Shown piece after piece: positions 4,442 to 64,000 of a DNA stretch of 64,000 nt. Within the stretch, counting starts at the first letter, position 1. Each line of letters begins with the position of its first letter. The stretch spans positions 156,488,001 to 156,552,000 of the forward strand of contig OX597816.1 of the NCBI GenBank assembly GCA_951406725.2, given 5' to 3'. The translations under genes and the position numbers were made by a program. The DNA comes from Octopus vulgaris. Taxonomy: Eukaryota. The notes beneath the pieces were generated by a model, which had not been told where the DNA came from, ran no database searches, and saw only the letters and a list, made by a program, of their open reading frames with translations.

Positions 4442-5363
4442 GATAATGATGACAAAAAATGATGATGAAAAAAATAGTGATGATGATAAAAAATAGTACA
4501 ACGTACACGCGCTGAATCACCACACCTTACAGTCGTCTTAAAAAAGATAAAAGACAACCTGGATAATGTAGTCTAGTTGTAGAAATATAATCATAGAAAC
4601 ATTGTAATCCAAGTTGTGTTTAATCCGATAGTCTAGGTTGATGTCTGCTTTAGCCTGGTAATCCACTGAAAATATTGTTTCTTCTGTTAGTCTTAAATAC
4701 ACGGTGCTTGGATACGGTTGGATGCTTTTCATAATAGGTTTAACCAGACCTGGGACTAAGCGACAAAACACCTGCTAGTGTTTAGGTTTTAGTAGCGGAA
4801 GTGGTTTATTTTTCCTTTTCTTTCTCGGCCCCTAAGACTCACAAAGCCGGTTACCCGGATTACATGACGTTTAAGTAAGAGAGAACAAGAAATTCTCGCA
4901 GAACAGGACGCCGGTCCGTTGAAGGTTTCAATGCCAGTAATTCTAAGATGAAGGGACATTTGATAAATTAGATTGGTTTCGGCTATTATCGGCCCAGGTC
5001 ATGACTAACTCAATAGCACCACCTGGAAAAGTTTTTTAGTTAATTATTTCAGGACACCATGAATCACTCAAGCAGAGAGTTGTTGTTGGTTGAGACGTGT
5101 AGGTGGTTTATCCTGTATTTCCTGGAGGAATTTATCCAGGAACCGTTTGAACGTTGTGGGGTCTTTTTCTATTTTAATTTCTTTTAGAATAACATTGAAA
5201 AAGAGAAGGACCATATATATATATATATATATATATGCCTTTCATCGTTCTGGTGTCACTGAAATAAATACCGGTTGCGCACTATGTTCGATGTAATGGA
5301 CTTAACTCTTCCCAAAATTTCAGGCCTTGTGCCTATAATAGAAAGGTCTACTATTATTGTTAT

Positions 5364-5782
5364 GATCTGGCATGGTTGTAAGCACACCGCGCAAAATGCT
5401 TAGTGGTATTTCTCCGTCGCTACGTTCTGAGTTCAAATTCCGCCGAGCTCGACTTTGCTTTTCATCCTTTCGGAGTCGGTAAATTAAATAGCAGTGAAAC
5501 ACCGGGGTCGATGTGATCGACTAGTCCCCTTCCACAAAATTTCAGGCCTGGTGCCTCCATTAGAAAGGATTATTATGAGCTGGCAGTAGTCCTAACACGC
5601 CGGGCAAACAGCTTAGCGATATCTCGTCCACCTTTACCTTCTGATTTTAAATTCCACAGAGGTCTACTTTGCCTTTCATTCTACCGGAGTCGATAAGATA
5701 AATACTAGTTGAACACTGCGGTAAATGTAATCGACTTACACCCCTCCCCATCGAATTTGCTGGCCTTGTACAAAAATTTGAA
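5364..5782 (+). mobile_element. Two tandem copies of tRNA-derived SINE family A
   Basis: B-box-like gagttcaaattcc plus core cgactttgc(c)tttcatcctttcggagtcg, as in the other family A copies. Confidence 0.75.
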
Positions 5783-7084: not shown

Positions 7085-8044
7085 CTATTTTACTCGTTTC
7101 AGCCATGCGGCCGTGGTCATGCTGGAGCACCACCATGGTCTTTCTGACTTCCTCAGACTTGGTGTTTCACATCACCACTCCTGTATGTGCCTTTGTTCCA
7201 GCTGTTAGTACATTTGATATATAAGTTTCATTCCGCTACCCTCGTCTGTACCTCATGTCGGGCTGTTGGTTCATCTGGTATTGCGGAGGGGAGGATGTCT
7301 AGTTCCTTTTAGAAGACACCTACTTCCACCTTGTTCAAATATCTTAATTCTTGTGGCAGGGTATTGAAGAGCTGTGGGCCTTTGAACGCTTGACTATTGC
7401 AGTACCTGGTCCTGAATTTAGATGGAGTAGATGGTACCTTTGGTACAATACAATGGCGGCAACCTCTGGCATTTGCATAACACTAAAATGCCAAAGGTAG
7501 GTACTAGCCCTTCTAGGATATTCCATATGTATATTATTGCATATCTCTCACGCCATCGCTCCAGGGAAGTATGGCTGTTGTTTTCTCAGCCTATCCCTGT
7601 AGCTCATCCGCTGCACTGTTTTAATTTTTTAATGTAGTGATGTTGGATTGCTTCGAGCTCCGTAGTTAGTTTGGCAATATGTGGTGACCATAACTGGGAG
7701 CAGTCGTCTCGGCGACTGAGAAGAAAGGTTCTCCACAGGGTCAACATAGTTTCTTGGTCTCTTATCTTGAAGGACATCAGAACCCACTCTGCCAGGTGTC
7801 TGCACTTCGCTGCCATCTTGCTAATGTGCATATGAAATGATGGGTCATTGCACATAGTGATCCCCAGGTCTTTCACTGCCTGCGACTCCGGGAATGTAGT
7901 GACTTCGGGTCCAGTAAATATAGATTGTACTGTATTCGTTAGTTGATAGTGCTCTGCTTGAAATTTTCCAACGTTAAACTGCATATTGTTTATTTCCTGG
8001 TGGCCAGGAAGATGTCCAAGTGCTGTTAGATCATGTGAACTCAA
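7085..8044 (-). mobile_element. CR1-like LINE 3' fragment (RT C-terminus to tail), decayed
   Basis: Translation MQFNVGKFQ...VKDLGI...DDCSQLWSPH...LEAIQ, continuing to ERWRERYAI. Homologous to 30255-30870. Confidence 0.75.
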
Positions 8045-8747
8045 TAAAGCTATCCATACAGTGTAAAGAGAGGGATTGCTCAGTGTCTAAAACATCGCGC
8101 GCAAAGTAGCGATCGTAATACCCACTATGAAGAAATGATCAAGCTCAGTAACAATCTATTAAGCAACAACTACCCCAAAATATAGTACCCACTCCAATTA
8201 TAAAGAAAAGAGAGTATGAAACCAATAACTTGTCTACAGTCTGTCTACTCTATGTGAAAGACCTCTCCGAAAACATACAAAAGATATGCTGCCCATATGA
8301 CATCAGGACAGTATTCAAGAATAATACATCACTTCGCAAATATCTCCTTCGAGTAAAACCACCAACAGAAGAGAATATGACTAAAAATTGCATGTACTCC
8401 ATTTCATGCAGCTGTGGTAGGTTATACAAAGGCGAAACATACCACCCCCTCAAAATAAAGGTAAAGGAACATCGCAAAGCTGTGACATGAGGAGATATTG
8501 ATAAATCGTGTATAGCTGATCATGTATGGAAAAATGAAGACCCCCCCCCCACTGTGGGATGAAATTAAAATAATAGATAGAAAACACCACTGGAAAATAC
8601 GAAAACTAAAAGAAGCAGCACATATGCTAGGACACAAGAACCTCCTAAGCAGGCAGAGTGCAGATATGAATAGCATATGGGAACCGGTATTAAGCAAGGA
8701 TAGGAAAATATAAGATTTATAAGCCCTAAAATTTACTCCATAATTGC

Positions 8748-8812
8748 TCCCGTAGTGGTTAAGTGCGCGGGCTACTAACCCCCAAGATTCCGAATTCGAT
8801 TCCAGGCAGTTA
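8748..8812 (+). promoter_or_regulatory. tRNA-like module (A box/B box) in PLE 3' UTR
   Basis: cgtagtggttaag (A-box-like), anticodon-arm-like ggg-ctactaa-ccc, gaattcgattcc (B-box-like). Also present in the second copy at 57568-57632 (-). Confidence 0.55.
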
Positions 8813-8817
<5 letters not shown>

Positions 8818-13574: not shown

Positions 13575-13913
13575 TATATGAATATGTGTGTGTGTGTATG
13601 TATGGACGTATGTATTTATGTATGTTTGTATGTATGTGTGAATAATAAAATGGATGACTGCTTATTAATCGTCTGCTAATGCGGAAACACAAAACTAGTA
13701 ACAATTCACTAATACCCAACTGTGATTTATTAAAAATTTACACATATTTACACAAAAACACAAACACACAATATCTGTCCAATTTCTTAGTTTTCGTAGA
13801 AGGATCATGGCCGAATGGAGATGAGGAGTGTTCCTGCATTACCTGGAAGAAAGGTTCATTTCCTATCCATTGTATGTTTAGTATACCTGTTTTATTATGG
13901 CCTCAGTCTTTGA

Positions 13914-14128
13914 AGGCGGTGAGCAGGCAGAATAGTTACACGCCGGGTGAAATGCTTAAGGGAATTTTGTCTGTGTCTACGTCCTGAGTTCAAATTACAC
14001 TCAGATCGACTTGGCCCTTCATTCTTTCAGTGTCGATAAATTAAATACCAGTTGAGTACTAGTGTCGATGTAATCGACTCAACCCGTCCCCCAAAATTTC
14101 AGGCGTTATCCCTATAGCATAAAGATTA
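13914..14128 (+). mobile_element. SINE family A copy
   Basis: ggcggtgagcaggcagaatagtta...gagttcaaatt...tcgataaattaaataccagtt. Confidence 0.75.
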
Positions 14129-19328: not shown

Positions 19329-19557
19329 GCGGTGAGCTGGCAGAAACGTTAGCACGTCGGACGAAATGCGTAGCCGTATTTCGTCTGCCGTTACGTTTTG
19401 AGTTCAAATTCCGCCGAGGTCGACTTTGCCTTTCATCCTTTCGGGGGCGATAAATTAAGTACCAGTTACGCACTGGGGTCGATATAATCGACTTAATCCT
19501 TTTGTCTGTCCTTGTTTGTCCCCTCTGTGTTTAGCCCCTTGTGGGTAGTAAAGAAAT
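19329..19557 (+). mobile_element. SINE family A copy
   Basis: gcggtgagctggcagaaacgttagcacg...gagttcaaattccgccgaggtcgactttgcctttcatcctttcggg. Confidence 0.85.
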
Positions 19558-20340
19558 ATATATGTTTGTGCATGTGTGTGCATGTGTGTGTGTGAGCGTG
19601 CGTGCGTGCATAAATATGTATATATGTAAACTAATGGGCCACGCATGAGTACTTTTGGTCATAAGTTTTCTGAAATAGGACAAACAATGGGCCCGCAATA
19701 AATACCTTGATAAAAATATGTGGAATGCCTAAACTAATTGGACAAATTAAAATCCTTGCAGTGCTTCCTTTCCACTTTCTAGGTTCCGAGGTCCCATTTT
19801 ACCTCTAACCTAAAGTCTTTATGACTTTGGATTAGATTATACAGTTACTAATGCTATACAGGAGGAGATATCCTTTAAGCTTTTCTAGCTTTGTTTCACT
19901 TCAAGACATCCAGTGAAATGCGAAAGTCAATTGTCAGTTGAGACAATACGATATGGTCAGTGAATTTCAGACAGAAATTTGATAAGCAATATGGACGAGG
20001 TGGAGTTATCCGCCCCTAGATATGATCCAATGGTCTCTAAAACAGGTCAGCGTATAATCAGCTTATATTCATTTCTTTATTTTTTTATTCATTTACTTGT
20101 TTCAGTCATTTTATTGCGGAAATACTGAAGAACACCGTCTTAAAGAAATCGACCCAAGATCTTATTCTTTGTAAGCTTAGTTACTATTTACGAACCGCTA
20201 GGTTTACGGAGACGTAAACGCAGACAGACACAGACACATATGCACAAATATATAGATAAATATATATATATATCAAGGGTATGAGAGGTACTGGTGTCAA
20301 GAAGACCCAAAGGTGTCTAGTAACGCTGAGTAAGTGCTAT

Positions 20341-25546: not shown

Positions 25547-25729
25547 GTGTGTATATATATATACATATATAGATGTATATATATATATGTGTATATATAT
25601 ATGTGTGTATATATATATATACATAAATATATGTATACATTTATGTAGGTCCCGGGTTGAGTCGGGGTTAACAACAGTAAATAAGGTACTCAATACATAG
25701 CAGAGTAAAGTAATTTATTTTATAGAAGG

Positions 25730-25780
25730 AGCTTCTAAAGGACTAAAACTGTTTCATTCAGTTGAAATCTTGAGGAAGTT
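25730..25780 (-). ncRNA. Hammerhead ribozyme, left arm, core mutated
   Basis: Minus strand aacttc-CTCAAGA-tttcaactgaat-GAAA-cagttttagtcctt-TA-gaagct. G5 changed to C; GAAA intact. Confidence 0.6.
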
Positions 25781-26257
25781 GGCTGTCAAAATAAGGTTTG
25801 GTATTTATACATTTAGGCAGATTTAATGGGATTGTGGTGGAGGACGTTTTTTGGGTAAGTTGGTATTTAGGAGATAAACAGGGCACAAGCTATTGTTCTT
25901 AGGGGAGTGGTCAGAAGGCCAGAGAGTTTTTTGAAATGAGATGAATCAGTGAGAAATAAATAAATGAATAAATAGAATAATTGAATAGAATGAGATATAT
26001 GGGATGGGGTTTTAGTTAAATTAGAAGACAATTGCTTTTTGGTGGTCAAGAGGAGGTAGTCAGTTTGTTATTGTTAAGTGGAGCGAAGAAATAGATAAAT
26101 ATACATGAAAAAACATATAAAATAAATATACATACAAACACACATACATACATATATATACATACATACGCACATATATATACATACAAACACATACATA
26201 CATATATACAAATATACATATACACACACACACATATATACAAAAATACATATACAT

Positions 26258-26304
<47 letters not shown>

Positions 26305-26370
26305 CATACATACACCTACATGCACGCACACACACGCGCACATATATATATACATATATATATACAAACA

Positions 26371-26421
<51 letters not shown>

Positions 26422-26781
26422 AAATGCACATATGCATACATACATAAATACCCACGTTCATATAAACATATACGTAATTATGCATATATAAACACATATA
26501 TAAATATACGTCTGTACACACAAACACACACATAAATATATGCACGCATATATAAACGCATATGCACATATAAAAACATATGTGCATATAAATATACATA
26601 CGCATATATAAGCATATATACGCATATAAATACATATATGCATACATAAATGCATACATGCATATACATACATACACACATATACATACATGCACATACA
26701 TACACATACATACACGTACATACATATACATATCTACACATATACACATATATATATACCCATAAAAAAATCTACAAGTCC

Positions 26782-26812
<31 letters not shown>

Positions 26813-27139
26813 CTTACATCCATACACAAATATGCAAGCATATGTATATATAAATACACATACGCATACATAAATATATACATGCATATACACATACATA
26901 CACATACACACACACATATATATATACATAAATACATACATGCATATATATATATACATATACACATATACATACATACATATAAATACACACACATGCA
27001 CATATATATATATATACATACATAAACATATACATATGTATATGCATACATATAAATATATACTCATGTACACACATACATACATAAATACATACCCACA
27101 CATACAAACATATGCATATATACATATATATATATACAG

Positions 27140-27172
<33 letters not shown>

Positions 27173-27410
27173 GATATATATATATATACATACATATATG
27201 CATACACATACACACGTATACACGCATACACATACATATGTACATATACATATGCACACACACACACACATACATATATGCACATATATACATATATGTG
27301 CACATATACACATGCATATATCTATATATATGTATATAGTCTTAGGAGAGAAGGTAATTGGGAGTGATGAAGGAACGGTGGGGGTGTGGGGTTTTGTGGG
27401 TGGGGTGTCG

Positions 27411-27773
27411 TCAATCGGGTGGCCGGGTGGATCTGTAATTTTTGTAGTTTGCATAGATTTTGTGCATACAGTTTGGGGAGTGTTCCGAGATCTTGTAGAG
27501 GAGAGGGCCTTTGGCGAATAAGATCTCAAAGCTCTCAGAAATGCAAAGGTCACAGCAGGTATGGCCTCCTGTGTAAGAACGCGCCCTCTGGAGTAGTCTC
27601 CACTTGATCTTGAAGGGGATGGAGTTCCTTTTAAGGTGCCAGATATGGGCGGCGAGAGTAGTCTGGTTAGATTTGTCAGGTCGCCGGAACGAATGTGTGT
27701 GGGCGTACCAGCGAGTCTTAAAACTATTTGAGGTCATTCCGATGTACGATTTTCTTTTATCATCGGGGCCTGA
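27411..27773 (-). pseudogene. PLE GIY-YIG endonuclease fragment, left arm
   Basis: SYIGMTSNSFKTRWYAHTHSF...TLAAHIWHLK...IKW...CDLCISE. Confidence 0.85.
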
Positions 27774-28168
27774 CTACTTGCCCCCTCAACAAAAACTGCC
27801 TACAGAAAGATCTCTTCTACATATGCGATGTACGATCAGGCCCCGATGATAAAATAAAATCGTACATCGGAATGACCTCAAATAGTTTTAAGACTCGCTG
27901 GTACGCCCACACACATTCGTTCCGGCGACCTGACAAATCTAACCAGAATACTCTCGCCGCCCATATCTGGCACCTTAAAAGGAACTCCATCCCCTTCAAG
28001 ATCAAGTGGAGACCACTCCAGAGAGCGCGTTCTTACACAGGAGGCCATACCTGCTGTGACCTTTGCATTTCTGAGAGCTTGGAGATCTTATTCGCCAAAG
28101 GCCCTCTCCTCAACAAGATCTCGGAACACTCCCCAAACTGTATGCACAAAATCTATGCAAACTACTAA
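27774..28168 (+). pseudogene. PLE GIY-YIG endonuclease fragment, right arm, uninterrupted frame
   Basis: CPLNKNCLQKDLFY...YIGMTSNSFKTRW...H...CDLCISE...LLNK...CMH has the YIG motif, conserved R, E and N, and Cys/His residues typical of PLE endonucleases. No RT upstream. Confidence 0.85.
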
Positions 28169-28421
28169 AATTACAGACCCACCCGGCCACCCGATTGACG
28201 ACACCCCACCCACAACCCCCCCACCCCCACCGTTCCTTCATCACTCCCAATTACCTTCTCTCCTAAGACTATATACATATATATATAGATATATGCATGT
28301 GTATATGTGCACATATATGTATATATGTGTGTGTGTGTGTGTGCATATGTATATGTACATATGTATGTGTATGCGTGTATACGTGTGTATGTGTATGTGT
28401 GTGCATATATGTATGTGTGTG

Positions 28422-28470
<49 letters not shown>

Positions 28471-29110
28471 GTATATATGCATATGTGTGTATGTGTGGGT
28501 ATGTATTTGTGTATGTATGTGTGTACATGAGTATGTATTTATATGTATGTATATACATATGTATATGTTTATGTATGTATATATATATATGTATATGTTT
28601 ATGTATGTATATATATACATGTGTGTGTATTTATATGTGTGTATGTATGTATATGTGTATATGTATATATGTATGTGTGTGTGTATGTGTATGTATGTGT
28701 ATATGCATGTATATATTTATGTATGCGTATGTGAAATATATATATATATATGGACTTGTAGATTTTTGTATGGGTATAGATATATGTGCATGTGTGTAGA
28801 TATGTATATATATGTACGTGTATGTATGTGTATGTATGTGCATGTATGTATATGTATGTATGCATGTATATGCATGTATACATTTATGTATGCATATATG
28901 TATTTATATGCGTATATATGCTTATATATGCGTATGTATATTTATATGCACATGTGTTTTTATATGTGCATATGCGTTTATATATGCGTGCATATATTTA
29001 TGTGTGTGTTTGTGTGTAGACGTATATTTATATATGTGTTTATATAAGCATAATTATGTATATGTTTAAATGAACGTGGGTATTTATGTATGTATGCATA
29101 TGTGTATTTG

Positions 29111-29154
<44 letters not shown>

Positions 29155-29188
29155 CGCGTGTGTGTGCGTGTATGTAGGTGTATGTATG

Positions 29189-29247
<59 letters not shown>

Positions 29248-29705
29248 ATATGTATACTTGTAAATATATGTATGTATGTGTTTGTATGTATATATATGTG
29301 CGTATGTATGTATATATATGTATATTCGCATGTATATGTATGTGTGTTTGCATGTATATTTATTTTATATGTTTTTTCATGTATATTTATCTATTTCTTC
29401 GCTCCACTTAACAATAACAAACTGACTACCTCCTTTTGACCACCAAAAAGCAATTGTCTTCTAATTTAACTAAAACCCCATCCCATATATCTCATTCTAT
29501 TCAATTATTCTATTTATTCATTTATTTATTTCCTCACTGATTCTTCTCATTTCAAAAAACTCTCTGGCCTTTTGACCACTCCCCCAAGAACAATAGCTTG
29601 TGCCCTGTTTATCTCCTAAATACCAACTTACCCAAAAAACGTCCCCCACCACAATCCCATTAAATCTGCCTAAATGTATAAATACCAAACCTTATTTTGA
29701 CAGCC

Positions 29706-29756
29706 AGCTTCCTGAAGATTTCATCTGAATGAAGCAGTTCTAGTCCTGTAGAAGCT
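29706..29756 (+). ncRNA. Hammerhead ribozyme, right arm, one core change
   Basis: agcttc-CTGAAGA-tttcatctgaat-GAAG-cag ttctagtc ctg-TA-gaagct. Perfect 6-bp stem I, GUA site, A15.1 changed to G. Confidence 0.7.
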
Positions 29757-29785
29757 CCTTCTTTAAAATAAAATATGTATACATG

Positions 29786-29840
<55 letters not shown>

Positions 29841-29864
29841 ACATTTATATATGTGTATATATAC

Positions 29865-30200
29865 ACAGCTCTTGAATATCCTCCCGAAGAACAGCTTCCC
29901 ACAGCTCTTCAATATCCTTCCCACAGCTCTTCAATATCCTCTCGAAGAACCTGAGGGACCTGCATGGTGTAGATGCGGATGTCTTGAAAGTAGGACTGGA
30001 TCTCTTCCTGTCAGGTGTCCCGGATGAACCAACTTCACGGCAGGAGGTGCAGATGAGGGCAGCTGCATCGAACTCTCTCATGCATCAGATGGCGTTTGGT
30101 AAAAAGCATCCGTGAGGTAAAATCGTGTAGCAAACCAAATGGCGGTGCCCCAGCATGGCCACAGCTCATTAGCTGAAACTAGAAAAATCAAAAATCAAAA
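29865..30200 (+). mobile_element. CR1-like LINE 3' end, second copy, with triplicated ~21-bp 5' junction
   Basis: (cc)cacagctcttcaatatcct occurs three times, then sequence very similar to 30605-30870. Confidence 0.8.
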
Positions 30201-30254
30201 TCATCAATCAAATACATATATGCATTTAATATATATATGCATAATAATATATAT

Positions 30255-30890
30255 GTGTGTCCTAAGCCACTTTGACTACTGCTCTCAGTTATGGTCACCA
30301 TCCAGTGTCAAGTTGATCACAGAGCTCGAGGCGATCCAACGTAGCTACACGAAGAAGATAGCCTCTATGCAGAATGTAAGCTACTGGGAAAGACTCAGGA
30401 AATTAAAATTATATTCCCTGGAGCGTAGGCGGGAAAGATATGCCATAATATACATCTGGAAGATCCTGTAGGGAAGTGTCCTGAACTTTGGCATCGAGAG
30501 TTACGCAAATGCCAGAACTGGGCGCCACTGTGTGGTGCCTAGGACTCCAAACTTGCCATCAAGATGTAGGACAAGATTCTGTGATAGCCTGGGCTTCCGA
30601 GGCCCACAGCTCTTCAATATCCTCCCGAAGAACCTGAGAGACCTGCATGGGGTGGATACAGATGTCTTTAAAATGAAGCTGGATCTCTTCCTGTCAGGTG
30701 TCCCAGATGAACCAACTTCACGGCAGGAGGGGCAGATGAGGGCAGCTGCATCGAACTCTCTCATGCACCAAATAGCAGTTGCTAGAAAGCCTTCATGAAG
30801 TGAAACCAAGTAGCAACACCAAATGGCGGTGCCCCAGCATGGCCACAGCTCATAAGCTGAAACTGGAAAAATCAAAATCAAAATCAAAAT
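30255..30890 (+). mobile_element. CR1-like LINE 3' fragment
   Basis: SHFDYCSQLWSP...LEAIQRSYTK...SYWERLRKLKLYSLERRRERY, GPQLFNILP...FKMKLDLFL, then an (aaaatc)n tail. Confidence 0.85.
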
Positions 30891-32318: not shown

Positions 32319-33562
32319 GCACAGTGTTTCTAGAACTACGCTTCCTTATTTGGAAGCCTTTTATTATATATATATATCATTTCTATTTATTTATGCGCCT
32401 TTTTCTAGCCTAGCCAGGCTCATGGGCCCGGTTTCCCGTCTATGGCGTATGTGTTCCCCCCAGCTATGAGAGGGGCCGAAGCTGGGGGACTGGCAATTAT
32501 GGTAACATTGGGACATGTAGATATGATAGGATATACATACTTTCATGCAAGCAAGGATTAAAATTTCACTTCAGTTTTACTATTCATCCGGGTTGCTGAG
32601 AGTACTTTAACATCACTCATTTCTTAGCCAGGCATAATCTGCACTTGTTGTTGGTATTTAAGTAACCATTACGTTCCTCTAAGATCCTCCACTGCATGAT
32701 TTAAAGAAACACAAAATATGGAACTCAGGTATGCTACATATAGGAAATATTGCGAGAAATCTACATGTGACTAATCACGTTGCTAGTCGCTGGAGAACTA
32801 AAGACCACCAGTATACGTTTCATACACACAATATATGCAACAATATTTCAATCAACTGGGAATGCTTAAATAATTATTACTCTAACCATAATTAGAATCT
32901 CAATGAAGGAAAATCAAGCAATATCAATATATGGTACAATATAAACAACAAAACCACGATATGACAAGAACCTTTTAACAAGTTCAATCCTACGAGAATG
33001 AAGAAAAACGTAGAACTACGAGAATACCAGATATAAAAGGTTCACAGACCAAAAGCCCATAAAAGTCTATGATACATTCCTATTATGATCTGTCTAACTT
33101 ATATCATTATGCTTTCGACACTTGGGCAATTTTTGGCATAACTATGAACAATTAAATTATATAAAATAGGTATCTCTGAATTCATATGTATACGTTTGTG
33201 TCTTCGTGTGTTTGAATGTGTTAGTGTTCCAGTGTTTCCGAATACGCGTCTATGCTTCTTTGTATAAAAATGATTCACAAACTTACCAAAGTCCTAGCTC
33301 TCAACCTTGAAATTAATGTCAAAACCGGCATCGTTTTTAAAGTTCAATTTACTCATTGACATTCTGACCTTTATCAAATAAACTATTGAATCAAAACAAT
33401 AGATTGATATATAACATATAATCTATACGATCAAAATTAATCTCTATTATTATTGATGTGTTTCTTTTTAATTAGTTGTGTTTCATGATATTCCATTTTA
33501 TTACTAGACCGTTTTAAAAATTAACAAACAATATTAGTTTTTGGCTTACTTTTTCCTTCTAT

Positions 33563-33816
33563 GTGGTGGCGCGTGGCTTAATAGTTAGGGTGTCAGCACC
33601 ATAATCGTAAGATTGTGGTTTCTATTCCTGGACCGGGCGACGCGTTGTGTTCTTGAGCAAAACACTTCATTTCACGTTGCTCCAGTCCACTCAGCTGGCA
33701 AAAATGAGTAACACTGCGATGGACTGGCATCCCGTCCAGCTGGGGAGCACATACACCATAGAAACCGGGAAACCGGGCTGTTGAGCCTGGCTAGGTTTTA
33801 AAAAGGGCGCATTTTG
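33563..33816 (+). mobile_element. tRNA-derived SINE family B, full length, 11-bp TSD
   Basis: A/B-box-like head. tttccttctat is repeated at 33552-33562 and 33817-33827. Near-identical to 37343-37600. Confidence 0.85.
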
Positions 33817-34624
33817 TTTCCTTCTATCCTGTAATTGCTTCTGTCATTGGACTGTGGCCATGATGGAGCGCTAATTTTAAGGGTTTATGCGAATAAAAGT
33901 AACCTAGCACTTGTTCTTAGGTTCGATAATTTTGATTTTTTCCCCGACCTGTTAAAGGAAACGCAAGCAAACCAACATCGACTGTCGAATCGTGGGGTTA
34001 TAAACACGAAACATTCATAAATATTCCTATTTTTCTGAACATAAAGAAATTCTATCCACCAATGTGCCGTCGAGCAATCATTTTCATCGTTCGACATTTA
34101 TGCGTATATGTATATAAACAAAATTATATGACAGACTACCACATAGTTTCCACCAACCAGTTTCACTCACATGTCATCAGTTTGACCGGGGCTGCAGAAG
34201 GAGATTCTTGACCAAGATGCCAAGCAGTGGGTTCGAAGACGAAAGCATGCATCTGCAAATCGATGTTCTTAACTGCGTACCTGTATGCGCACACAAGTTT
34301 GGCTACATTCCAAACAAGATTACTCATTACTTTTTCTTTTTTTAACTTTCCTGTTTGCTTCACTTTTCGTATTGAAATGCAAATCATTGTGTTAGTAAAT
34401 GGGATACTTTACGTAGCTCCGTCTTAAAACATAGACGCACTGGACAATTTCACGGAGGCGAAACGGAGCAGAGGTTCCAATTGCTACCTTATTTATGTTG
34501 TAGCAAGCATTCAATAAATATAGAAGATTCAAATATATTAATTTCCTCGTAGTGCTTCACTGCACTACTTTTTCTTCTTTTGTTTTTTTTTCTTTGTGTG
34601 TGGGGGGGGGGGGGGCGGAGGTCA

Positions 34625-34982
34625 CTAAACAATTACATCGAACCCAATACGTGGTAGATGTTTATTTCATCGACACATGAAAGAAGAAATCTGACATGTG
34701 CGGAATTTGAACTCAGAATATAAAGCCGAAACAAATACCTATTTCTTTACTACCAACAAGGGGCTAAACAAAGAGGGGACGAACACGGACAGACAAACGG
34801 ATTAAGTCGATTACATCGACTCCAGCGCGTAACTGGTACTTATTTAATCGACCCCGAAAGTATGAAAGGCAAAGTCGACCTCGGCGGAATTTGAACTCAG
34901 AACGAAACGGCAGACGAAAGCTGGAACAAATACCGCTAAGTATGTTATCCCACATGCTACTGATTCCCCCAGCTAGACGCCT
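34625..34982 (-). mobile_element. SINE family A dimeric copy
   Basis: Reverse complement of the family A core occurs twice (cggaatttgaactcagaa at ~34700 and ~34885). Confidence 0.7.
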
Positions 34983-35371
34983 TTGCTTACGTCATGATTT
35001 TAGAAGTGTCATTTCTATGGCATCCTTAAATTTATTAAGTGCTATTTCAAAATATTCGTATGATTTTCATACAACATTATCTTCTAACATTTTCTCTATG
35101 ATGGAATCATCTTCAAGAATGTCTTCTGGCATCAAGTTAAACATATTGTATACATTACGAATATCACCTTGACTATGATTGATGAAGCGTAGTGTTCACG
35201 TATTCCATACATTAATCACTGAATCACTAGAGTGCTGTACTAAATATTAAAATATTAAATAATAATGAATCATGTTTATACATCTATTTACGTTATAGGG
35301 TCAAAGGTTCAAATATAGCACAAGATACGATTTCGCATTTCATATCAGTGGATCGATAGTATATATATTCC

Positions 35372-35932
35372 TCTACTCTAGGCACAAGGCCCGAAATTTT
35401 TGGGAAGGTAGGCAGTCAATTAGATCGACCTCAGTACACAACTGGTACTTAATTTATCGACCCCCGAAAGTATAAAAGGTAAAGTCGACCTCAGCGGAAT
35501 TAGAACTCAGAACCTAAAGACAGGCGAAATACATATTTCTTTACTGCCCACAAGGGGCTAAATATAGAAGGGACAAACAAGGACAAACAAACAGATTAAG
35601 TCGATTATATCGACCCCAGTGCGTAACTGGTATTTATTTAATTGACCTCGAAAGGGTGAAAGGCAAAGTTGACCTCGGCGGAATTTGAACTCAGAACGTA
35701 TCGGCAGGCGAAATACCCATTTCTTTATTACCCACAAGGGGACAAACAAGGACAGACATAGGTGTTAAGTCGATTACATCGACCCCAGTCGTAACTGGTA
35801 CTTAATTTATCGACCCCGAAAGGATGAAAGGCAAAGTCGACCTCGGCGGAATTTGAACTCACAACGTAACGCAGACGAAATACCGCTAAGCATTTCGCCC
35901 GGCGTGGTAATGTTTCTGCCAGCTCGCCGCCT
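35372..35932 (-). mobile_element. SINE family A trimeric copy
   Basis: Three repeats of the gtcgacctcggcggaatttgaactcagaac core; head ends gccagctcgccgcc. Confidence 0.8.
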
Positions 35933-36194
35933 TTTATCGAATGTTTATATTTATATGCTAGTAATACGTTGGATCAATGTATGTGGGTTAAGAATTCTCG
36001 ATCGGTATTTTCCGGACGATTGTGGTCTTTTTTTGTGTATATGCTTACATTTATGTGCGTTGACTACTACATTAGAACTTTTTAGTTTTTATTTCTAGCA
36101 ATGTAGGTGCTTCTAACACCCAAGTCACATTTAGAGACAATTATAATTCTCCATTTTGGTGAAATATTGCAAACTGTTGTTTATATCAATTTTA

Positions 36195-36326
<132 letters not shown>

Positions 36327-37342
36327 AGTGTGTATGTATAATATATAAATAACAACAGACAGATAATGTGTCAATTTTCACTAAAGCTAACTTGATTAAC
36401 TGAGACAATATATCATTGAAAAAAACTGCTTTCATCAGGTGAATACATGGACTACAACACTCAAATCCAACGGGTTATTGATATACTCAATCGGATACAA
36501 TTAGTGATATACATAACCTGAATATTTTTCAGCCTGTACTTCGGTAAACGCATATGAACAAACCCACTCGATAGCGGCATGGGACGGTACAGCCCCCGCC
36601 CCCAGTTCGTATATGGAGTGTTGGAGATAATTCACAAGCATAGTACCTGCCCAAGGACAGACGAATACTAGACACACGTACACACACACGGATATAGATA
36701 CGTACGCTTATGGCTATTTGTGTAAACGGGTTTTACATCTCCATAGCATAGTTTACATTAAACGGCTCTTTCTCATGCGGTTTCCTGTTTTCTTTTTAAA
36801 ATACGGATATATAGAATAGACTGAATGGTTGATTTGAACATAACCGTACAGAGGTAGCGACAATCAGCTTGACCTGCCTCAAATACCTGGCAAATTGCTA
36901 TGCGATCGTATCATACTTAGTTAAAAAGGAAGTATATGATAACAGCTCAGACTGGTAATGCTGCTCGATTTACCGAGCCCGATCCTGCGTACCAAGTGGC
37001 ATTCAGTGTACAGCAATCTCTCCTCTGTCATTTGGATTGTTTGGCCACATGTCACATGGTCACGGTGGATGAGGAAATATCTCGACTGACATGACTGGAA
37101 CGATCCGAATACTGACTACTGGCGGATACACTGACGAGCTGCAACATCGCTCTCACCATAACTGACTTGAACACTGACACATAAAATATGTAAGATAGAG
37201 ACGGTCGGTGGCGGGGTAATCCCTGTTTATCATATGGCTGCTCAGTTGGTAATGATCTGGGGATAAACAACAAGAGTTGACAATACTTTGAAAATGACGT
37301 CATTGTCGAATATCTTTTAAAGTTAAATATTGCATGCCTATG

Positions 37343-37600
37343 TGGAGGCGCGTAGCTTAGTGGTTAGGGTGTCAGCACCATGATCGTAAGATTGTGGTTT
37401 CGATTCCTGGACCGGGCGACGCGTTGTGTTGTTGAGCAAAATACTTCATTTAACGTTGCTCCAGTCCACTCAGCTGGCAAAAATGAGTAACGCTGCGATG
37501 GAATGGCGTCCCGTCCAGCTGGGAGCACATACGCCATAGAAACCGGGAAACCGTGCCCATGAGCCTGGCTAGGCTTTAAAAGGGCGCATTTATTTTTTTA
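37343..37600 (+). mobile_element. tRNA-derived SINE family B, full length, 14-bp TSD
   Basis: tagcttagtggttag (A box) and ggtttcgattcc (B box). attgcatgcctatg at 37329-37342 and 37601-37614. Confidence 0.9.
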
Positions 37601-47490: not shown

Positions 47491-47910
47491 GCACATATGT
47501 ATGTACAACGTGTTAGGTGTGGTGTACAGAAATTGAATATTGAGAAAAAACGTCATCAGAATTTTGGAAAAAAAAAACTTTTTATTTCTTCATTATCATT
47601 ATTGCTTTCGTTCCTTTCTCGAACTTGTCAAAACAAAATTTGTGAATGTGTTCGTCATACGAACGAAAGCGCTGATAATAATGAAGGAATAAATAGATTT
47701 TTTTATTCAAAATTCTGACGACATTTTTCTCAATATATGTATTTATACACATACATGACAAGTAAATAGACACCCTAATAATCGTATATATATATATTAG
47801 GGAATAAATTATTATTCCAACCTTACAGGTAAAATTCAGTATAATAATATTAGACCGAATTTCGTAATATATAATATATAATATATGTATATAACTAATT
47901 TAGAGACGAA

Positions 47911-48404
47911 CCACCATTCCACAACTCAGTCAATTAATAATCCACTCCAAAACCATGCTGTGAGACATATACCATTCACAATACTAATCTAAAATTTTGA
48001 TAATTTGACATGAGGAGTGACTGTTTTGGGAGTAAAATCATTTTTACGTTCTAATGAACTTGGCTATAGTTTGCTTATATGATTTTATATAGTCCAAATG
48101 CAGCCATGAAACGCGCGTAGTCGATGTACAAGTACTTAATTTTATAGATTATATTATTGTATTAACTTTTATTGTTCAATTTATACTTTATTTGATTTTA
48201 GATTAATATTTTTATAATGAATGTTTCTTTATATGTTATTCGTTGTGATTTTAAAAGTGCTTTCTCTTATATATTATATGACTGTAATAATCTTACTGTT
48301 CAATATTATATATTATTACAATTTTAGATTAGTATTGTGTATGGTATATGTCTCACAGCATGGTATTGGAGTGGGTTATTCATTGACTGAGTTGTGGAAT
48401 GGTG
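47911..48404. repeat. ~95-bp inverted repeats enclosing a degenerate HHR
   Basis: caccattccacaactcagtcaat...aatactaatctaaaatt vs its reverse complement at ~48318-48404. CTAATGA...tggct...agcca-t-GAAA-cgcgcg-TA at 48051-48119. Confidence 0.7.
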
Positions 48405-48418
48405 TATATATATATATG

Positions 48419-48481
<63 letters not shown>

Positions 48482-48674
48482 AGAAAATGGAGAAATACAT
48501 CTAAATCAATTAACTACCAGATAATATCCAATCACATACTTTATTAAACCACTACATATGAACATCAAGGTCAAACATAATAATGTAGAACAAAACAGTG
48601 TACATGAAGGAGTAATGTGATACAATAAGTACAATATGTATAAGAGAATATAAATAAATATAAATATAAACCAT

Positions 48675-48801
48675 ATCTTACAGCTGTTTCGGCCATGCAG
48701 ATATGGGTGTCTCATTTTGCTCATATTAGCCATGTGTGATAGGTCAATATATAGTTATAAATGAGACACTTACAAAAATATCCAAAGGCCTCTTCGGAGA
48801 T
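48675..48801 (-). ncRNA. Hammerhead ribozyme (CCGAAGA core, long stem II), left arm
   Basis: Minus strand atct-CCGAAGA-ggcc...ggcc-GAAA-cagctg-TA-agat. Confidence 0.65.
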
Positions 48802-49340
48802 TATGAAATACAAACTAAATCAAATATACACCCATACAAGTGTGGGTACATACCCATAATATATCATATACACATACATATGAGTGCATATACTCATACT
48901 CCTATACATATATATATACATATATATAATAATATAAATCAATAAGCATACATATGTTCTATATTCAATGTTACAGTTTTTCAACTTTATATTATGATAT
49001 TACAATGTAGAAAACATACACATATTAATACTCAAATTCAGATATTCAAAGTCAAGTTATATTAATATCAATTAATATAATGTACTCTTGACTTTGTATA
49101 TCTGCATTTGAGTATTAATATGTGTATGTTTTCTACATTGTAATATCATAATATTAAGTTGAAAAACTGTAACATTGAATATGGAACATATGTATGTTTA
49201 TTGATTTATATTATTATGTATATGTATGTATATGTGTATAGGAGTATGAGTATATGCACTCATATGTATGTGTATATGATATATTATGGTATGTACCCAC
49301 AGTTGTATGGGTGTATATTTAATTTAGTTTGTATTTCATA

Positions 49341-49468
49341 ATCTCCGAAGAGGCCTTGGGATATTTTTGTAAGTGTCTCATTTATAACTACATTATGGAC
49401 CTATCACATATGGCTAATATGAGCAAAATGAGACACCCATATCTGCATGGCCGAAACAGCTGTAAGAT
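49341..49468 (+). ncRNA. Hammerhead ribozyme (CCGAAGA core, long stem II), right arm
   Basis: atct-CCGAAGA-ggcc..tgtctcattt..aaatgagaca..ggcc-GAAA-cagctg-TA-agat. GUA site. Confidence 0.65.
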
Positions 49469-50324
49469 GTAGCTTATATTTATATCTATATTTATTTATA
49501 TTCTCTTATACATATTGTACTTATTGTATCATATTACTCCTTCATGTACACTGTTTTGTTCTATATTATTATATATGATTGGTGCCAAACAAACAAGAGA
49601 CGACTACTCTCTGCTTCTCTCTCTCGCTCGCTCGCTCTCACGTACGCACATACTTTATACATACATGCATTTGCGAATGCATGAGAATATTTTACACATA
49701 TATAGACTCCTACATACACAGACACATGCGCGCGCACGCATACACATGCACACACACACACACACACACTCAAACACACACATAGGTGCTGCCTTATTCA
49801 AAGACGTCTCATTTCTGAAAAGGAAAGAGTAATTTCTTCATACTGCTCAATAACATTTTATTTTAAGAAATATATTGTATACAGTTCAACTTACAACATA
49901 TGAGGCAATACATTTCCGATATCGAAACACTTTGAGTTGCTGTAAAATTTGTTCTGGCATTCAAGACATTTTAATAACAGCAGGTGGAAAAGTGGCAGTT
50001 GATACAACTGGTGGTAGTTGATGCAACTACCAAGTAGACAGAAAGATATATACTTATGCACACACACACACATATATGTATACAAGCATGTATATCTCGC
50101 TATCTATTTCTCTTCTCTCTCTTACTCTCTTTCTCTCGCTGTCTCTCTCGCTATATATATATATATATTGTATATATATATGTGTGTATAAATATATTTA
50201 TACATATAAATGTATATATATATGTATACATATATATATATATATACATATATACATTTATATATATATATATATATATGCATACATATATATATTTGTA
50301 TATTTGTGTGTCTGTATATATGTA

Positions 50325-51540: not shown

Positions 51541-51734
51541 AATACTATGTAATTACCAACGCGGTAGTTCACCTCTTAATCAAGGAATAAGCTATCGGAA
51601 TCTTCTGCAGTCACAAAATTGACTTCTCCTGCCCTCGTTGTCCGTATCCGAAATTTTAGCAATATATTTCTCAATAGAAATATGAATGATTGGTACACAG
51701 TGCTGGTTTCATCTCTATATTGTACATCCGGGAA

Positions 51735-52353
51735 GGCGGCGAGCTGGCAGAAACGTTAGCACGCCGGGCGAAATGCGTAGCCGTATTTCGTCTGCCGTTA
51801 CGTTCTGAGTTCAAATTCCGCCGAACTCGACTTTGCCTTTCATCCTTTTGGGGTCGATAAATTAACTACCAGTTACGCACTGGGGTCGATATAATCGAGT
51901 TTATCCGTTTGCCTGTCCTTGTTTGTCCTCTCTGTGTTTAGCCGCTTGTGGGTAGTAAAGAAATAGATATTTCGTCTGCCGCTACGTTCTGAGGTCAAAT
52001 TGGGCCGAGGTCGACTTTGCCTTTGCCATCCTTTCGGTGTCGATAAATTAAGTACCGCTTACGCACTGGAGTCGATGTAATCGACTCAATTCCTTTGTCT
52101 GTCGTTGTTTGTTCCCTCTATGTTTAGCCCCTTGTGGACAATAAAGAAGTAAGAAACGTTAGCACGCCGAGCGAAATGCTTATCGGTATTTCGTCTGTCT
52201 TTACGTTCTGAGTTCAAATTCTGCTGAGGTCGACTTTGCCTTTCATCCTTTCGGTGTCGATAAATTAAGTACCAATTGCGTACTGGGGTCGATCTAATCG
52301 ACTGGCTCCCCCCCCCCCACAAACTTCGGGCTTTGTGCCTAGAGTAGAAAACA
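51735..52353 (+). mobile_element. SINE family A trimeric copy with 15-bp TSD
   Basis: Three cores. atattgtacat(c/t)cgg at 51717-51731 and 52354-52368. Confidence 0.85.
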
Positions 52354-52604
52354 ATATTGTACATTCGGCCAACAAATCGTACTCGTGCATCTGTGAGAGA
52401 CCAGGCGAACACGTTTCTTCTGAGACATGCTAAAAGCAGATTTGTAGCCGTGAATAATTTCAGCCCCAGCTCTGTATATATGTATATATGATCTCGTGTG
52501 ACGACGAAAGGCAAGTATTTGAAATTGAAGACCTTTCGAGCTCGCTACCCGAAAGCCCGCGAAATATATCACAGGGAGCTTTTGGGATATATATATTTTT
52601 TTCT

Positions 52605-57419: not shown

Positions 57420-58105
57420 ATTTACATTTGACGGATATTTGTCATCATCTTTTTTGTTGTTAACACAACGTTTCGGCTGATATACTCTCCAGCCTTCTTC
57501 AGCTGTTCTGGGGAAATTTCGAACCTGGGTTCTCATACCTCAGGTATATTTCGATGTTATTATTATTGTCACTGCCTGGAATAAAACTCGGAATCCTGGG
57601 GTTAGTAGCCCGCGCTCTTAACCTTTACGCCATTCATTATGGAATGAATTTTAGGACTTATAAATCTAATATTTTCCTATCCTTCCTTAATACTGGTTCC
57701 CATATGCTACTCATATTTCCAGTAGGCGTGCTTAGGAGTTTTTTATGCCCTGGCTTATATGCTGCTTCAATTACTTTTCGTATTTTCCATTGGTGTTCTC
57801 TGCCTATTATTTTAACTTCATCTCAGAGGGAGAGGTGCTCTCAGTTTTTTCATACATGATTAACTATACCCGATTTATCAATATCTCCCCGTGTCACAGT
57901 TTTGCGATGTTCCTCTACACTTATTGTGAGGGGGCGGCATGTTTCGCCTATGTATAACCTTCCACAGCTGCATGGAATGAAGTACACGAAGTCTTTGGCC
58001 ATATTATCTTCTATTGGTGGTTTTACTCGGAGATATTTGCGAAGTGTTGCATTACTTTTGAATGCTGTCCTGATGTTATATTGGTTGCATATCTTTTGTT
58101 TCTTT
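57420..58105 (-). mobile_element. 5'-truncated Penelope-like element (GIY-YIG, tRNA-like module, HHR)
   Basis: KICNQYNIRTAFKSN...FVYFIPCSCGRLYIGETCRPL...EEHRK...KSGIVNHV. The 3' end gacaaatatccgtcaaatgtaaataa is shared with 9039-9064. Confidence 0.88.
57462..57507 (-). ncRNA. Minimal type I hammerhead in PLE 3' end
   Basis: Minus strand aacag-CTGAAGA-a-ggctg gagagtatat cagcc-GAA-ACGT-T-gtgtt. One stem I mismatch, GUU site. Confidence 0.7.
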
Positions 58106-58179
58106 TCAATTGTGACATAGCGTGAAACTCCATCAGAAACTAGCTCGTCTTTCAAACCAGCTAACTTTCCTGTGTAGAT

Positions 58180-58443
58180 GTAGACAGTCTTTACATAGAC
58201 CTCTGAGCAGGTATCGCTAAGCTTTTGGCAACATTTGATGCAGATTCTCTGCCCAACTTCCTCTGTCATAGTCATTGCGACGATCACATGCTACACACGT
58301 TCCTTCGAAGCACTGCTGCAAACAAGGTAACTGAACTAGAACGTTGAAACATAGTCCACATGCAAAGCAGAGTTTAAGGTCACTCTGTGGGCTTTAGCTT
58401 CGTTATTATGGCAAAAGTCCGGTTACTTATTGATCAGACCACA
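58180..58443 (-). mobile_element. Mariner 5' fragment (TIR plus transposase N-terminus)
   Basis: Terminus ggtctgatcaataagtaaccgg. QRICIKCCQKLSDTCSE resembles the mariner QR..IKFC.KLG.T..E N-terminus. Confidence 0.6.
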
Positions 58444-62865: not shown

Positions 62866-63859
62866 CGCTTTTGCTGCCGCTGCCGGTGTGCTGCCGCCAC
62901 CAGTCGTGCAACGGCTGCTACCGATGTGCAGCTGACACCACTGCAGTGGTTACTTTTGCTAATGCAGTTGTTGTAGCTCCTGTTGATGATAGCATTGTTG
63001 CTGATGTTGTGGTTCCTGTTATTCTCGTTTGCCGCTACAGCATTTGGGCTTTGAACTGTAAGGAAAGAAGTAAGTTCTATCCTCCAATTCCGTGAGCAGA
63101 ATCATTTGTTCATTAGAATTGCTGCTACATATATTGCTTTTCTGAATATTGTTATAATTCTGATGCTGCTATTCTCTAGTCTCTGATCCCTCTCCTAGCG
63201 AATATGGTGTCATTCTGCTACTACGCTACTGAAGCATTTTGTTGGTGTCAGCTACGCCAAATTTTTCGAATTTGGAGAGAAGACAAAAAATTACGTGTCT
63301 CTCATGCAGAATTAGCAGAAACGTGGAAAGTGAATAAAAAACACACTTCCAGTTACGAAAAGAAATGTAAAATATAATGCACGACATGCTGAAAATTTTT
63401 AAACTACACACCAACACACATGCACACACAAAAACATGTGTGTACACCCATGTATATACATACATGTATGCACACACATATACATATAGTTAACATTATT
63501 TGGAACTCGCAAAATTCACTGAATGGTATTCGCTATCTGAGATGATATGAGTCAAGGGATTGTACTTGAAATGTACCCGATTAAAACTTAATAATAAGAG
63601 ATCACTTCTTTTATTCGTTACAAAGACATATCAAATGAAATACGCTCAAATTCATAGATCAACACAAAACCTACTTCATGTTCAAAACATAAAATTTAAG
63701 TTTCCCACTTTACACTTATGTATGTAAACACATGTTCTCGTGCATCCGCGCACATGCACACACTCCTCCATAATCAAATCTATTTTACACAAACTAGCTA
63801 TCTATGCACACACGTACACACAAATGCATATTTTCATAATCAAGTTTACTAGAATTCTA

Positions 63860-64000
63860 AAGGCAGCGAGCTGGCAGAAACGTTAGCACGCCGGGCGAAA
63901 TGCTTAGCAGTATTTTGTCTGCCGTTACGTCCTGAGTACAAACTCCGCCGAGGTCGACTTTGCCTTTCATCATTTTGTGGTCGATTAAATAAGTACCAGT
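63860..64000 (+). mobile_element. SINE family A copy running off the window end
   Basis: ggcagcgagctggcagaaacgttagcacgccgggcgaaatgc...gaggtcgactttgcctttcatc. Confidence 0.85.

What the first reader, a model, noticed from the sequence alone, without database searches (positions are those of the whole stretch)
25645..29772. 4.1-kb head-to-head Penelope palindrome with outward GIY-YIG ORFs and terminal hammerhead ribozymes
Seen: 25713-27773 and 27836-29772 are reverse complements around a 62-bp spacer that continues only the right-arm ORF (CPLNKNCL). Each arm reads outward as endonuclease ORF, low-complexity UTR, unique tail and HHR, then TA-rich repeat. The left arm has ~70 nt more 3' tail. Known: PLEs encode GIY-YIG endonucleases, carry HHRs in their pLTRs and can show inverted truncated ends. 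Inference: both ends of a break in (TA)n were primed on the element RNA and joined at their 5' truncations, giving an element with two 3' ends. Read-through transcription would form a ~2 kb hairpin with a ribozyme at its distal end.
Basis: partly seen in the sequence, partly recalled or inferred. Interest (0 to 1): 0.85.

Follow-up and report, generated by a model that had tools for sequence, protein, structure and literature searches.

The report
Ordinary head-to-head Penelope (Hydra) insertion
This 4.1-kb palindrome is real but ordinary: two broken end-pieces of a common jumping gene (a Penelope-like element of the Hydra group) joined head to head, a known layout seen at many other copies in this genome, likely made in a single insertion, with both ribozyme motifs mutated and so likely inactive.

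Summary
The palindrome is confirmed: the arms are about 97% identical in unique sequence, around a 62-nt spacer. Both arms are 5'-truncated ends of a high-copy Penelope-like element (PLE) that meets the tested Hydra-clade protein motifs; the endonuclease piece models as a GIY-YIG fold. The layout is published: an inverted 5'-truncated partner with a one-sided 'tail' (PMC8557442, PMC3846280), including one Hydra family. Here 21 of 37 other endonuclease-bearing loci carry an inverted piece, and 3 have the endonuclease in both arms. Corrections: the 'ORFs' are start-less fragments lacking the reverse transcriptase. Both hammerheads carry core mutations, whereas 73 of 86 family copies are intact. 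A 12-nt target duplication and variants shared by both arms point to one insertion. One residue of interest: 34 of 35 resolved two-ended units carry the 71-nt tail on exactly one end, none on both, on either the longer or the shorter arm. This fits both target strands priming at two start sites of one RNA (inferred). Reads did not test the junction. Low interest.

The parts
25629..25640 (+). Left copy of a likely 12-nt target-site duplication, at the edge of a TA-rich repeat
   Evidence: Identical to 29773-29784. Such non-pure-TA repeats of 12 nt or more arose in 48 of 1860 mismatched flank pairs, and in 0 of 60 for this flank
25642..25712 (-). 71-nt PLE 'tail', on the left arm only; in full-length copies it is the sequence between the hammerhead and the ORF leader
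25730..25780 (-). Left type I hammerhead remnant; core reads CUCAAGA, stem III mismatched
   Evidence: five changes private to this arm
25713..26119 (-). Left arm, unique 3' region (pLTR-like)
   Evidence: 394 of 406 aligned bases match the right arm
26120..27336 (-). Left arm, microsatellite-rich 3' UTR
27411..27773 (-). Left GIY-YIG endonuclease fragment; starts after the first beta strand, no start codon
27772..27773 (.). Inversion junction with 2-nt microhomology
27774..27835 (+). 62-nt spacer: extra 5' sequence of the right arm (last Cys of the CxCx5C linker and first endonuclease strand)
27773..28168 (+). Right GIY-YIG endonuclease fragment, premature stop at 28166-28168
   Evidence: Model pLDDT 90.6; best match I-TevI catalytic domain Z 9.4, rmsd 2.4, 89 aligned
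28274..29365 (+). Right arm, microsatellite-rich 3' UTR
29366..29772 (+). Right arm, unique 3' region, ending at the family's tail-less end point
29706..29756 (+). Right type I hammerhead remnant; GAAG in place of GAAA (29734)
29773..29784 (+). Right copy of the likely 12-nt target-site duplication, followed by (TA)n

Best explanation
This is one decayed, 5'-truncated, head-to-head insertion of a Hydra-clade Penelope-like retrotransposon, likely made when both nicked strands of a (TA)n target primed reverse transcription on the same element RNA at two start sites 71 nt apart, and the two short cDNAs were likely joined at their truncated ends. Shown: family and clade motifs, inverted layout, tail on one end, 2-nt junction microhomology, mutated ribozyme cores, no reverse transcriptase. 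Strongly indicated: one event from one source (target duplication, shared variants). Inferred: staggered nicks about 12 nt apart, one primer per strand, one start site per primer, end-joining, then neutral decay to about 3% between the arms. It likely has no function now.
For: Long copies carry one frame with reverse transcriptase then endonuclease, and the Hydra motifs RWR, DKT, CxCx5C, CxxC, CxH and no CCHH (vs PMC8557442 section 11; supplement alignment). GIY-YIG fold. Of 31 independent two-ended units, 31 have exactly one tail; 15 of these were picked by the ORF, not the tail. A prediction noted before the new stretches were read held at 3 of 4 testable loci. The tail is on the longer arm in 15 and the shorter in 13 of 28 units (with the window rescored as shorter), and arm lengths are uncorrelated (rho 0.11). 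The partner arm is the closest arm in 15 of 23 units, and on average 5.8% of foreign arms are closer. The window's arms share at least 3 variants found in at most one other arm. 17 of 33 junctions tried resolved: 9 with 0-5 nt overlap, 8 with 1-15 nt gaps. In vitro, a Poseidon PLE nicks and extends both strands, starts at two sites that bracket the tail, and is predicted to be a dimer (PMC11167929).
Against: This copy is nearly symmetric (62-nt offset on 2-kb arms), which suits fold-back. Near-symmetric units are 5 of 31 against 1.9 expected (P 0.027), though only 2 of 31 against 0.9 (P 0.23) among arms over 200 nt. L031 and L044 have short inverted pieces at the 5' end without a 3' end, and L041 and L062 show extra switches. 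L037 had no tail at either end found. In the endonuclease tree the window's arms are each other's nearest (2.5%) only narrowly (2.6% to L056) and are not grouped with support. About half of the loci have no inverted partner: 16 of 37 ORF-picked, 15 of 29 tail-picked. Both samples are top-40 hit lists, biased in arm length. The in vitro data come from another clade.
Confidence: 0.6

Rival explanations
1. Fold-back (self-priming): one cDNA, or an antisense RNA, folded on itself at 27773 with a 62-nt loop and was copied back, giving the second arm.
For: Proposed for head-to-head Penelope structures in PMC3846280 (Discussion). The junction here is near-symmetric, with a slight excess of such units. 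Fold-back-like 5' ends at L031 and L044. Sister arms and one target duplication fit it equally well.
Against: A strand copied back from the longer arm cannot gain a tail that the longer arm lacks, yet the tail is on the shorter arm here and in 13 of 28 units. Most units are strongly asymmetric. It needs an extra step to move or add the tail.
Confidence: 0.25
2. The two ends were copied from two different RNA molecules: either in one event with the start site fixed by which strand is nicked, or as two separate insertions into the same (TA)n run.
For: The family is high-copy and targets (TA)n. The arms differ by 2.5-3.2%.
Against: The arms are sisters far more often than random and share rare variants. 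The differences are mostly private to one arm. One target duplication flanks the whole unit. Separate insertions would give both-tailed units, and none were seen. Two RNAs from one dominant source copy are not excluded.
Confidence: 0.09
3. A single-armed insertion was later duplicated in inverted form by DNA repair, or the arms were homogenised by gene conversion.
For: Microsatellite-rich, palindromic DNA is unstable (recalled). L062 looks rearranged.
Against: Both ends stop at the family's two fixed 3' end points, next to (TA)n, in unit after unit. A repair duplication would not respect those points.
Confidence: 0.03
4. Assembly artefact from a fold-back read.
For: Long palindromes are a known artefact class (recalled).
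Against: Each arm has its own substitutions and repeat lengths, the two flanks differ, only one arm has the tail, and the same layout recurs on many contigs.
Confidence: 0.02
5. A kept, functional unit: a long hairpin RNA released by terminal ribozymes, or a source of endonuclease.
For: The central 937 nt would fold with 880 bases paired if transcribed.
Against: Both ribozyme cores are mutated while 76 of 86 family copies keep the core. There is no start codon, and one frame has an early stop. The arms have diverged in an apparently neutral way.
Confidence: 0.02

Closest known systems
Hydra clade of C-terminal-endonuclease PLEs (Craig et al. 2021, PMC8557442; read: passages, sections 11 and 15, supplement part 2 and passages)
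   Same: Reverse transcriptase then GIY-YIG in one frame; RW(K/R), DKT, CxCx5C, no CCHH, CxxC and CxH; canonical hammerhead; (TA)n target. [quoted passage not shown]
   Different: A different family from Hydra-1_Obim by hammerhead flanks and protein sequence (by eye). A microsatellite-rich 3' UTR of 1 kb or more makes long copies over 4 kb, against 'generally <3 kb'. The tail is 71 nt, against 30-40 nt given for PLEs.
Head-to-head inverted Penelope insertions of Adineta vaga (PMC3846280; read: passages and Discussion)
   Same: Inverted pLTRs, tail optional on one of them, 8-10 bp target duplications, head-to-head called the most frequent arrangement.
   Different: There the inverted piece is mostly a pLTR. 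Here both arms reach into the endonuclease, as at 3 of 37 other loci. Those authors favour self-priming.
PAc, a Poseidon PLE of Anolis tested in vitro (PMC11167929; read: parts 1-2 of 4)
   Same: AT-rich target, both strands nicked and extended, two reverse-transcription start sites that define the tail, hammerhead just upstream and not needed for insertion.
   Different: Another clade. In the parts read, the paper does not tie the two start sites to the two ends of one inverted insertion.
LINE-1 twin priming (recalled; seen only in search listing)
   Same: A second target strand primes on the same RNA, and the cDNAs join by microhomology.
   Different: In L1 the second primer anneals far inside the RNA, so the arms do not repeat each other and there is one 3' end. 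Here both arms copy the same 3' region.

Membership tests
PLE, endonuclease-bearing | GIY-YIG endonuclease domain | tested here: met
   Top structural matches are GIY-YIG domains: I-TevI Z 9.4 (rmsd 2.4, 89 aligned), T4 EndoII Z 7.7, UvrC Z 6.4. Y31, G33, R42, C98 and E101 are invariant in 37 rows. Homolog P0043 hits PF01541 at 1.6e-5. Pfam has no hit on the window or family frames; Foldseek best E 0.023.
PLE, endonuclease-bearing | Reverse transcriptase in the same frame | tested here: met
   Family level only: L033, L040, L054 and L064 carry it, each broken by frameshifts (YRDDG-type motif, matching the Hydra rows by eye). It is absent from the window copy by truncation.
PLE, endonuclease-bearing | pLTR, tandem/inverted structures and optional tail | tested here: met
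   Direct pLTR before the ORF in L033, L054 and L064; inverted partners and one-sided tail.
Hydra clade | Endonuclease C-terminal to the reverse transcriptase | tested here: met
Hydra clade | RWK motif and DKG changed to DKT | tested here: met
   IRWRSFFF (R for K) and SDKTK in long copies
Hydra clade | CxCx5C linker; no CCHH; CxxC and CxH around the catalytic E and N | tested here: met
   CNCPDKTTC (L033, L064); a single Cys within the GIY-YIG hairpin; CDLC, then E, then N, then CMH
Hydra clade | Canonical hammerhead; insertion into (TA)n | tested here: met
   Family: 73 of 86 copies with core and stems; descriptor hit in 0 of 20000 resamples; ends abut TA-rich repeats in almost all 33 units listed.
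Hydra clade | Falls in the Hydra clade in a reverse-transcriptase tree with reference PLEs | not tested
Hydra clade | Generally shorter than 3 kb | tested here: not met
   L033 spans about 4.8 kb from hammerhead to hammerhead because of the microsatellite UTR. The source calls this a tendency, not a rule.
Naiad/Chlamys | N-terminal endonuclease, no canonical hammerhead | tested here: not met
Penelope/Poseidon, Neptune, Nematis | CCHH motif in the endonuclease | tested here: not met
   against PMC8557442
Active type I hammerhead (window copies) | Intact CUGAnGA and GAAA core with stems I-III | tested here: not met
   Both copies fail. That these two positions are essential is recalled.
Active type I hammerhead (family copies) | Self-cleavage | not testable with these tools
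   Needs a cleavage assay. Rfam does not score even an intact copy.

The most novel reading that the evidence does not exclude
Inverted PLE insertions follow a near-strict one-tail rule (34 of 35 here, none with two tails) because a dimeric PLE protein nicks both target strands and primes two cDNAs on one RNA, one from each of the two start sites. The tail and the inverted partner would then be two signs of one step. This Hydra family, with a long 71-nt tail and hundreds of candidate loci, would give a genome-scale test of the open question of how PLE inverted repeats form.
Probability: 0.4. Interest if true: 0.5.

Novelty: new member of a known kind. Interest (0 to 1): 0.2.

Why it matters
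The locus itself matters little: a dead copy in a known layout. Two modest uses remain. (1) The family looks like a further Hydra-clade PLE with an unusually long tail and UTR, which Pfam and Rfam both miss. (2) How PLE inverted repeats form is named as open in PMC8557442 (section 15). The one-tail count, sister arms and uncorrelated arm lengths constrain it, and favour priming from both target ends over simple fold-back.

Tried and rejected
Reads: the run search listed 24 runs, best share of words 0.31, none on record as RNA: no RNA holder listed. Four contig sets laid on 27600-28000 showed no joint and no listed piece bridging the junction. Contigs reaching 27772 run on into normal family sequence. 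This is inconclusive, as the runs may be of other individuals or species. Rfam: only microsatellite-driven miRNA hits among the 150 of 159 rows shown, none at gathering score and no hammerhead; none on the right ribozyme or on an intact family copy. Minimum-energy folds of three 56-nt hammerhead pieces were no better than shuffles (z -0.3 to -0.7). Pfam gave nothing relevant on window or family frames. A protein search for longer relatives of the window fragment found none; a longer family frame found 53. Foldseek had no match at E <= 0.001. Target duplications could not be read in most units because the flanks are pure (TA)n; non-pure repeats of 12 nt or more were seen in 4 of 31. 16 of 33 junctions did not resolve. 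Two look-ups of earlier scan findings returned nothing. Dropped before counting units: 2 near-identical duplicates (L087, second unit of L070); one L033 unit was re-ended because its 'second tail' runs on into the ORF. Rejected: Naiad, Penelope/Poseidon/Neptune, miRNA precursors, working ribozymes.

Full report
OBSERVATION. The palindrome is real. Reading outward from the centre, 27337-27773 and 27836-28273 match at 426 positions with 10 mismatches and 2 gaps. The microsatellite-rich middles align with 1018 matches, 48 mismatches and 14 gaps. The outer unique regions match at 394 positions with 12 mismatches. The 62-nt spacer belongs to the right arm: other copies run through it in frame. The left arm has 71 nt more at its far end. 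Two claims need correcting. First, the frames are fragments: no start codon, no reverse transcriptase, the left one cut inside the GIY-YIG hairpin, the right one stopped 10 codons early. Second, both hammerheads are damaged in the core.

WHAT IT IS. Searches of the own genome gave 489 and 974 first-look candidates for the endonuclease piece and the 3' end; 40 were scored each time, so these are not copy numbers. I read 37 loci picked by the endonuclease and 33 picked by the tailed end, 10 kb each. Four long copies show hammerhead (lost in L040's upstream end), tail, leader and one long frame with reverse transcriptase then endonuclease, each now frameshifted. They carry RWR, DKT, a CxCx5C linker, no CCHH, and CxxC and CxH around the catalytic E and N. 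These are the features given for the Hydra clade (PMC8557442 section 11), and the proteins match the Hydra rows of that paper's supplement by eye. I did not build a tree with reference proteins. A model of the window's right fragment (pLDDT 90.6) matches I-TevI (Z 9.4, rmsd 2.4, 89 aligned), T4 EndoII (7.7) and UvrC (6.4). Foldseek and Pfam gave no significant hit. The family hammerhead is a type I motif, intact with stems in 73 of 86 copies; the descriptor hit 0 of 20000 resamples. Rfam and energy folds do not detect it.

HOW COMMON THE LAYOUT IS. 21 of 37 endonuclease-picked loci have an inverted family piece 5' of the main arm, and 17 have an inverted hammerhead end. Three (L041, L043, L062) have endonuclease in both arms, as here. 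Of 29 independent tail-picked loci, 14 have an opposite end within 10 kb. Of 31 independent two-ended units, 10 are 4 kb or longer. The window itself holds a second such palindrome of another family. [quoted passage not shown] 2 legend). Head-to-head is called the most frequent arrangement (PMC3846280). The Hydra family Penelope-13_HM is annotated with an attached inverted copy.

ONE EVENT. A 12-nt direct repeat flanks the unit (25629-25640, 29773-29784). Comparable repeats arose in 48 of 1860 mismatched flank pairs, and in 0 of 60 for this flank. In the 3' region the two arms are closer to each other (3.2%) than to any of 29 other arms, and share at least 3 variants seen in at most one other arm. 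Across units the partner arm is closest in 15 of 23. Against this, in the endonuclease tree the window's arms are not grouped with support, although those of L041 and L043 are. Most differences are private to one arm, which fits identical arms at birth and neutral decay, and argues against a fold-back read artefact. Public contigs neither bridged nor excluded the junction.

MECHANISM. Every one of 31 independent units has the tail on exactly one end. Fourteen were picked by their tail, so for them only the absence at the other end is a test; 15 were picked by the ORF and 2 were incidental. I then noted predictions for six loci whose far end was unread: 3 held, 1 failed (L037, a complex locus with no tail found at either end), and 2 could not be tested. 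Total: 34 of 35 with one tail, 0 with two. The tail lies on the longer arm in 15 and the shorter in 13 of 28 units (the script printed 16 and 12 in base pairs; the window is the shorter arm in element coordinates), and arm lengths do not correlate. Both samples are biased in arm length. Resolved junctions show 0-5 nt overlaps (9) or 1-15 nt gaps (8) among 33 tried; here the overlap is 2 nt. A Poseidon PLE protein nicks and extends both strands of AT-rich DNA and starts at two sites that bracket the tail (PMC11167929). The simplest joint reading, which is inferred: each target strand primes one cDNA on the same RNA, one at each start site; both stop early and are end-joined. Independent choice of start site at each end would give two-tailed units. 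Simple fold-back cannot put a tail on the shorter, copied arm. Fold-back still has support: this copy is nearly symmetric, near-symmetric units are slightly in excess (5 of 31 vs 1.9, P 0.027; not significant for long arms), and some loci have fold-back-like 5' ends. I give dual priming about 0.6 and fold-back about 0.25.

FUNCTION TODAY. Likely none. The centre would form a long hairpin if transcribed (880 of 937 nt paired), but no transcript was shown and both ribozyme cores are mutated. In the Poseidon element, cleavage was not needed for insertion in vitro.

NOVELTY. The layout is already known; the family appears to be a further Hydra member. Five literature searches and the texts read did not state a strict one-tail rule or link it to two start sites. 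The library lacks most subscription papers, including older Penelope work on tails, so this may be in print. What I saw of each paper: PMC8557442, passages, sections 11 and 15, supplement part 2 of 59 and passages; PMC3846280, passages and Discussion; PMC11167929, parts 1-2 of 4, no supplements; bioRxiv 10.64898/2026.07.22.740005 and PMC13282606, passages only, nothing bearing on the layout. Hammerhead residue roles and L1 twin priming are recalled.

VERDICT. Real, largely correctly read, but ordinary. New member of a known kind; interest 0.2.

Noticed in passing
window 48480-49580: A second head-to-head palindrome (arms 92-96% complementary, 30-nt spacer) of a different high-copy family (1638 first-look candidates). 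Four other head-to-head pairs appear among 42 rows. It has a GAAA-CAG-CTG-TA hammerhead half and a one-sided extension next to (TA)n. Likely another PLE-derived inverted unit.
   Followed up: partly
window 57440-58290 (-), with an 83% inverted relative at 8269-8813: A frame with a Cys-bearing GIY-YIG-like motif (FIPCSCGRLYIGET), followed by an intact hammerhead core at 57502 (-). It looks like a Penelope/Poseidon-type 3' end (pattern recalled); no Pfam hit.
   Followed up: partly
window 25730-25780 (-): Five of the left arm's eight unshared changes in its 3' region fall in the 56-nt ribozyme region (P about 0.002, after the fact). Both arms lost the core, against 8 of 84 other copies. Unexplained; possibly chance.
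   Followed up: partly
window 29845-30870, with a 70% relative at 7224-7708: A LINE-like 3' fragment next to the right flank, with an internal direct repeat 29920-30180 / 30603-30864 (88%). Class judged by eye; no Pfam hit.
   Followed up: no
window 5237-5749, 13912-14124, 19329-19566, 34632-34984, 35372-35934, 51732-52358, 63859-64000: Many copies of one SINE-like repeat, some in tandem.
   Followed up: no
L031:5886-5929, L044:4950-5327, L041:4386-5444, L062:3799-6203: Family copies with short fold-back pieces or several strand switches inside the ORF; in L062 both outer arms break at the same element position.
   Followed up: partly
L033:3471-3664, L079:9142-9338, L097:4265-4487: Minimal inverted units of about 200 nt, made of two hammerhead ends and one tail.
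   Followed up: partly
family-wide: The two subfamilies differ at the free position of the hammerhead core (CUGAAGA vs CUGAUGA), as expected if the motif was under selection while the family was active.
   Followed up: partly
window 47537-48404 and 32393-37591: Further short inverted pairs (47912-48004 / 48312-48404, 94%; 33559-33814 / 37338-37591, 92%).
   Followed up: no
P0046: The only animal-named homolog is an octopus protein labelled 'GATA zinc finger domain-containing protein 14-like', likely a mis-annotated piece of a related PLE. The host is likely a cephalopod (inferred, not pursued).
   Followed up: no
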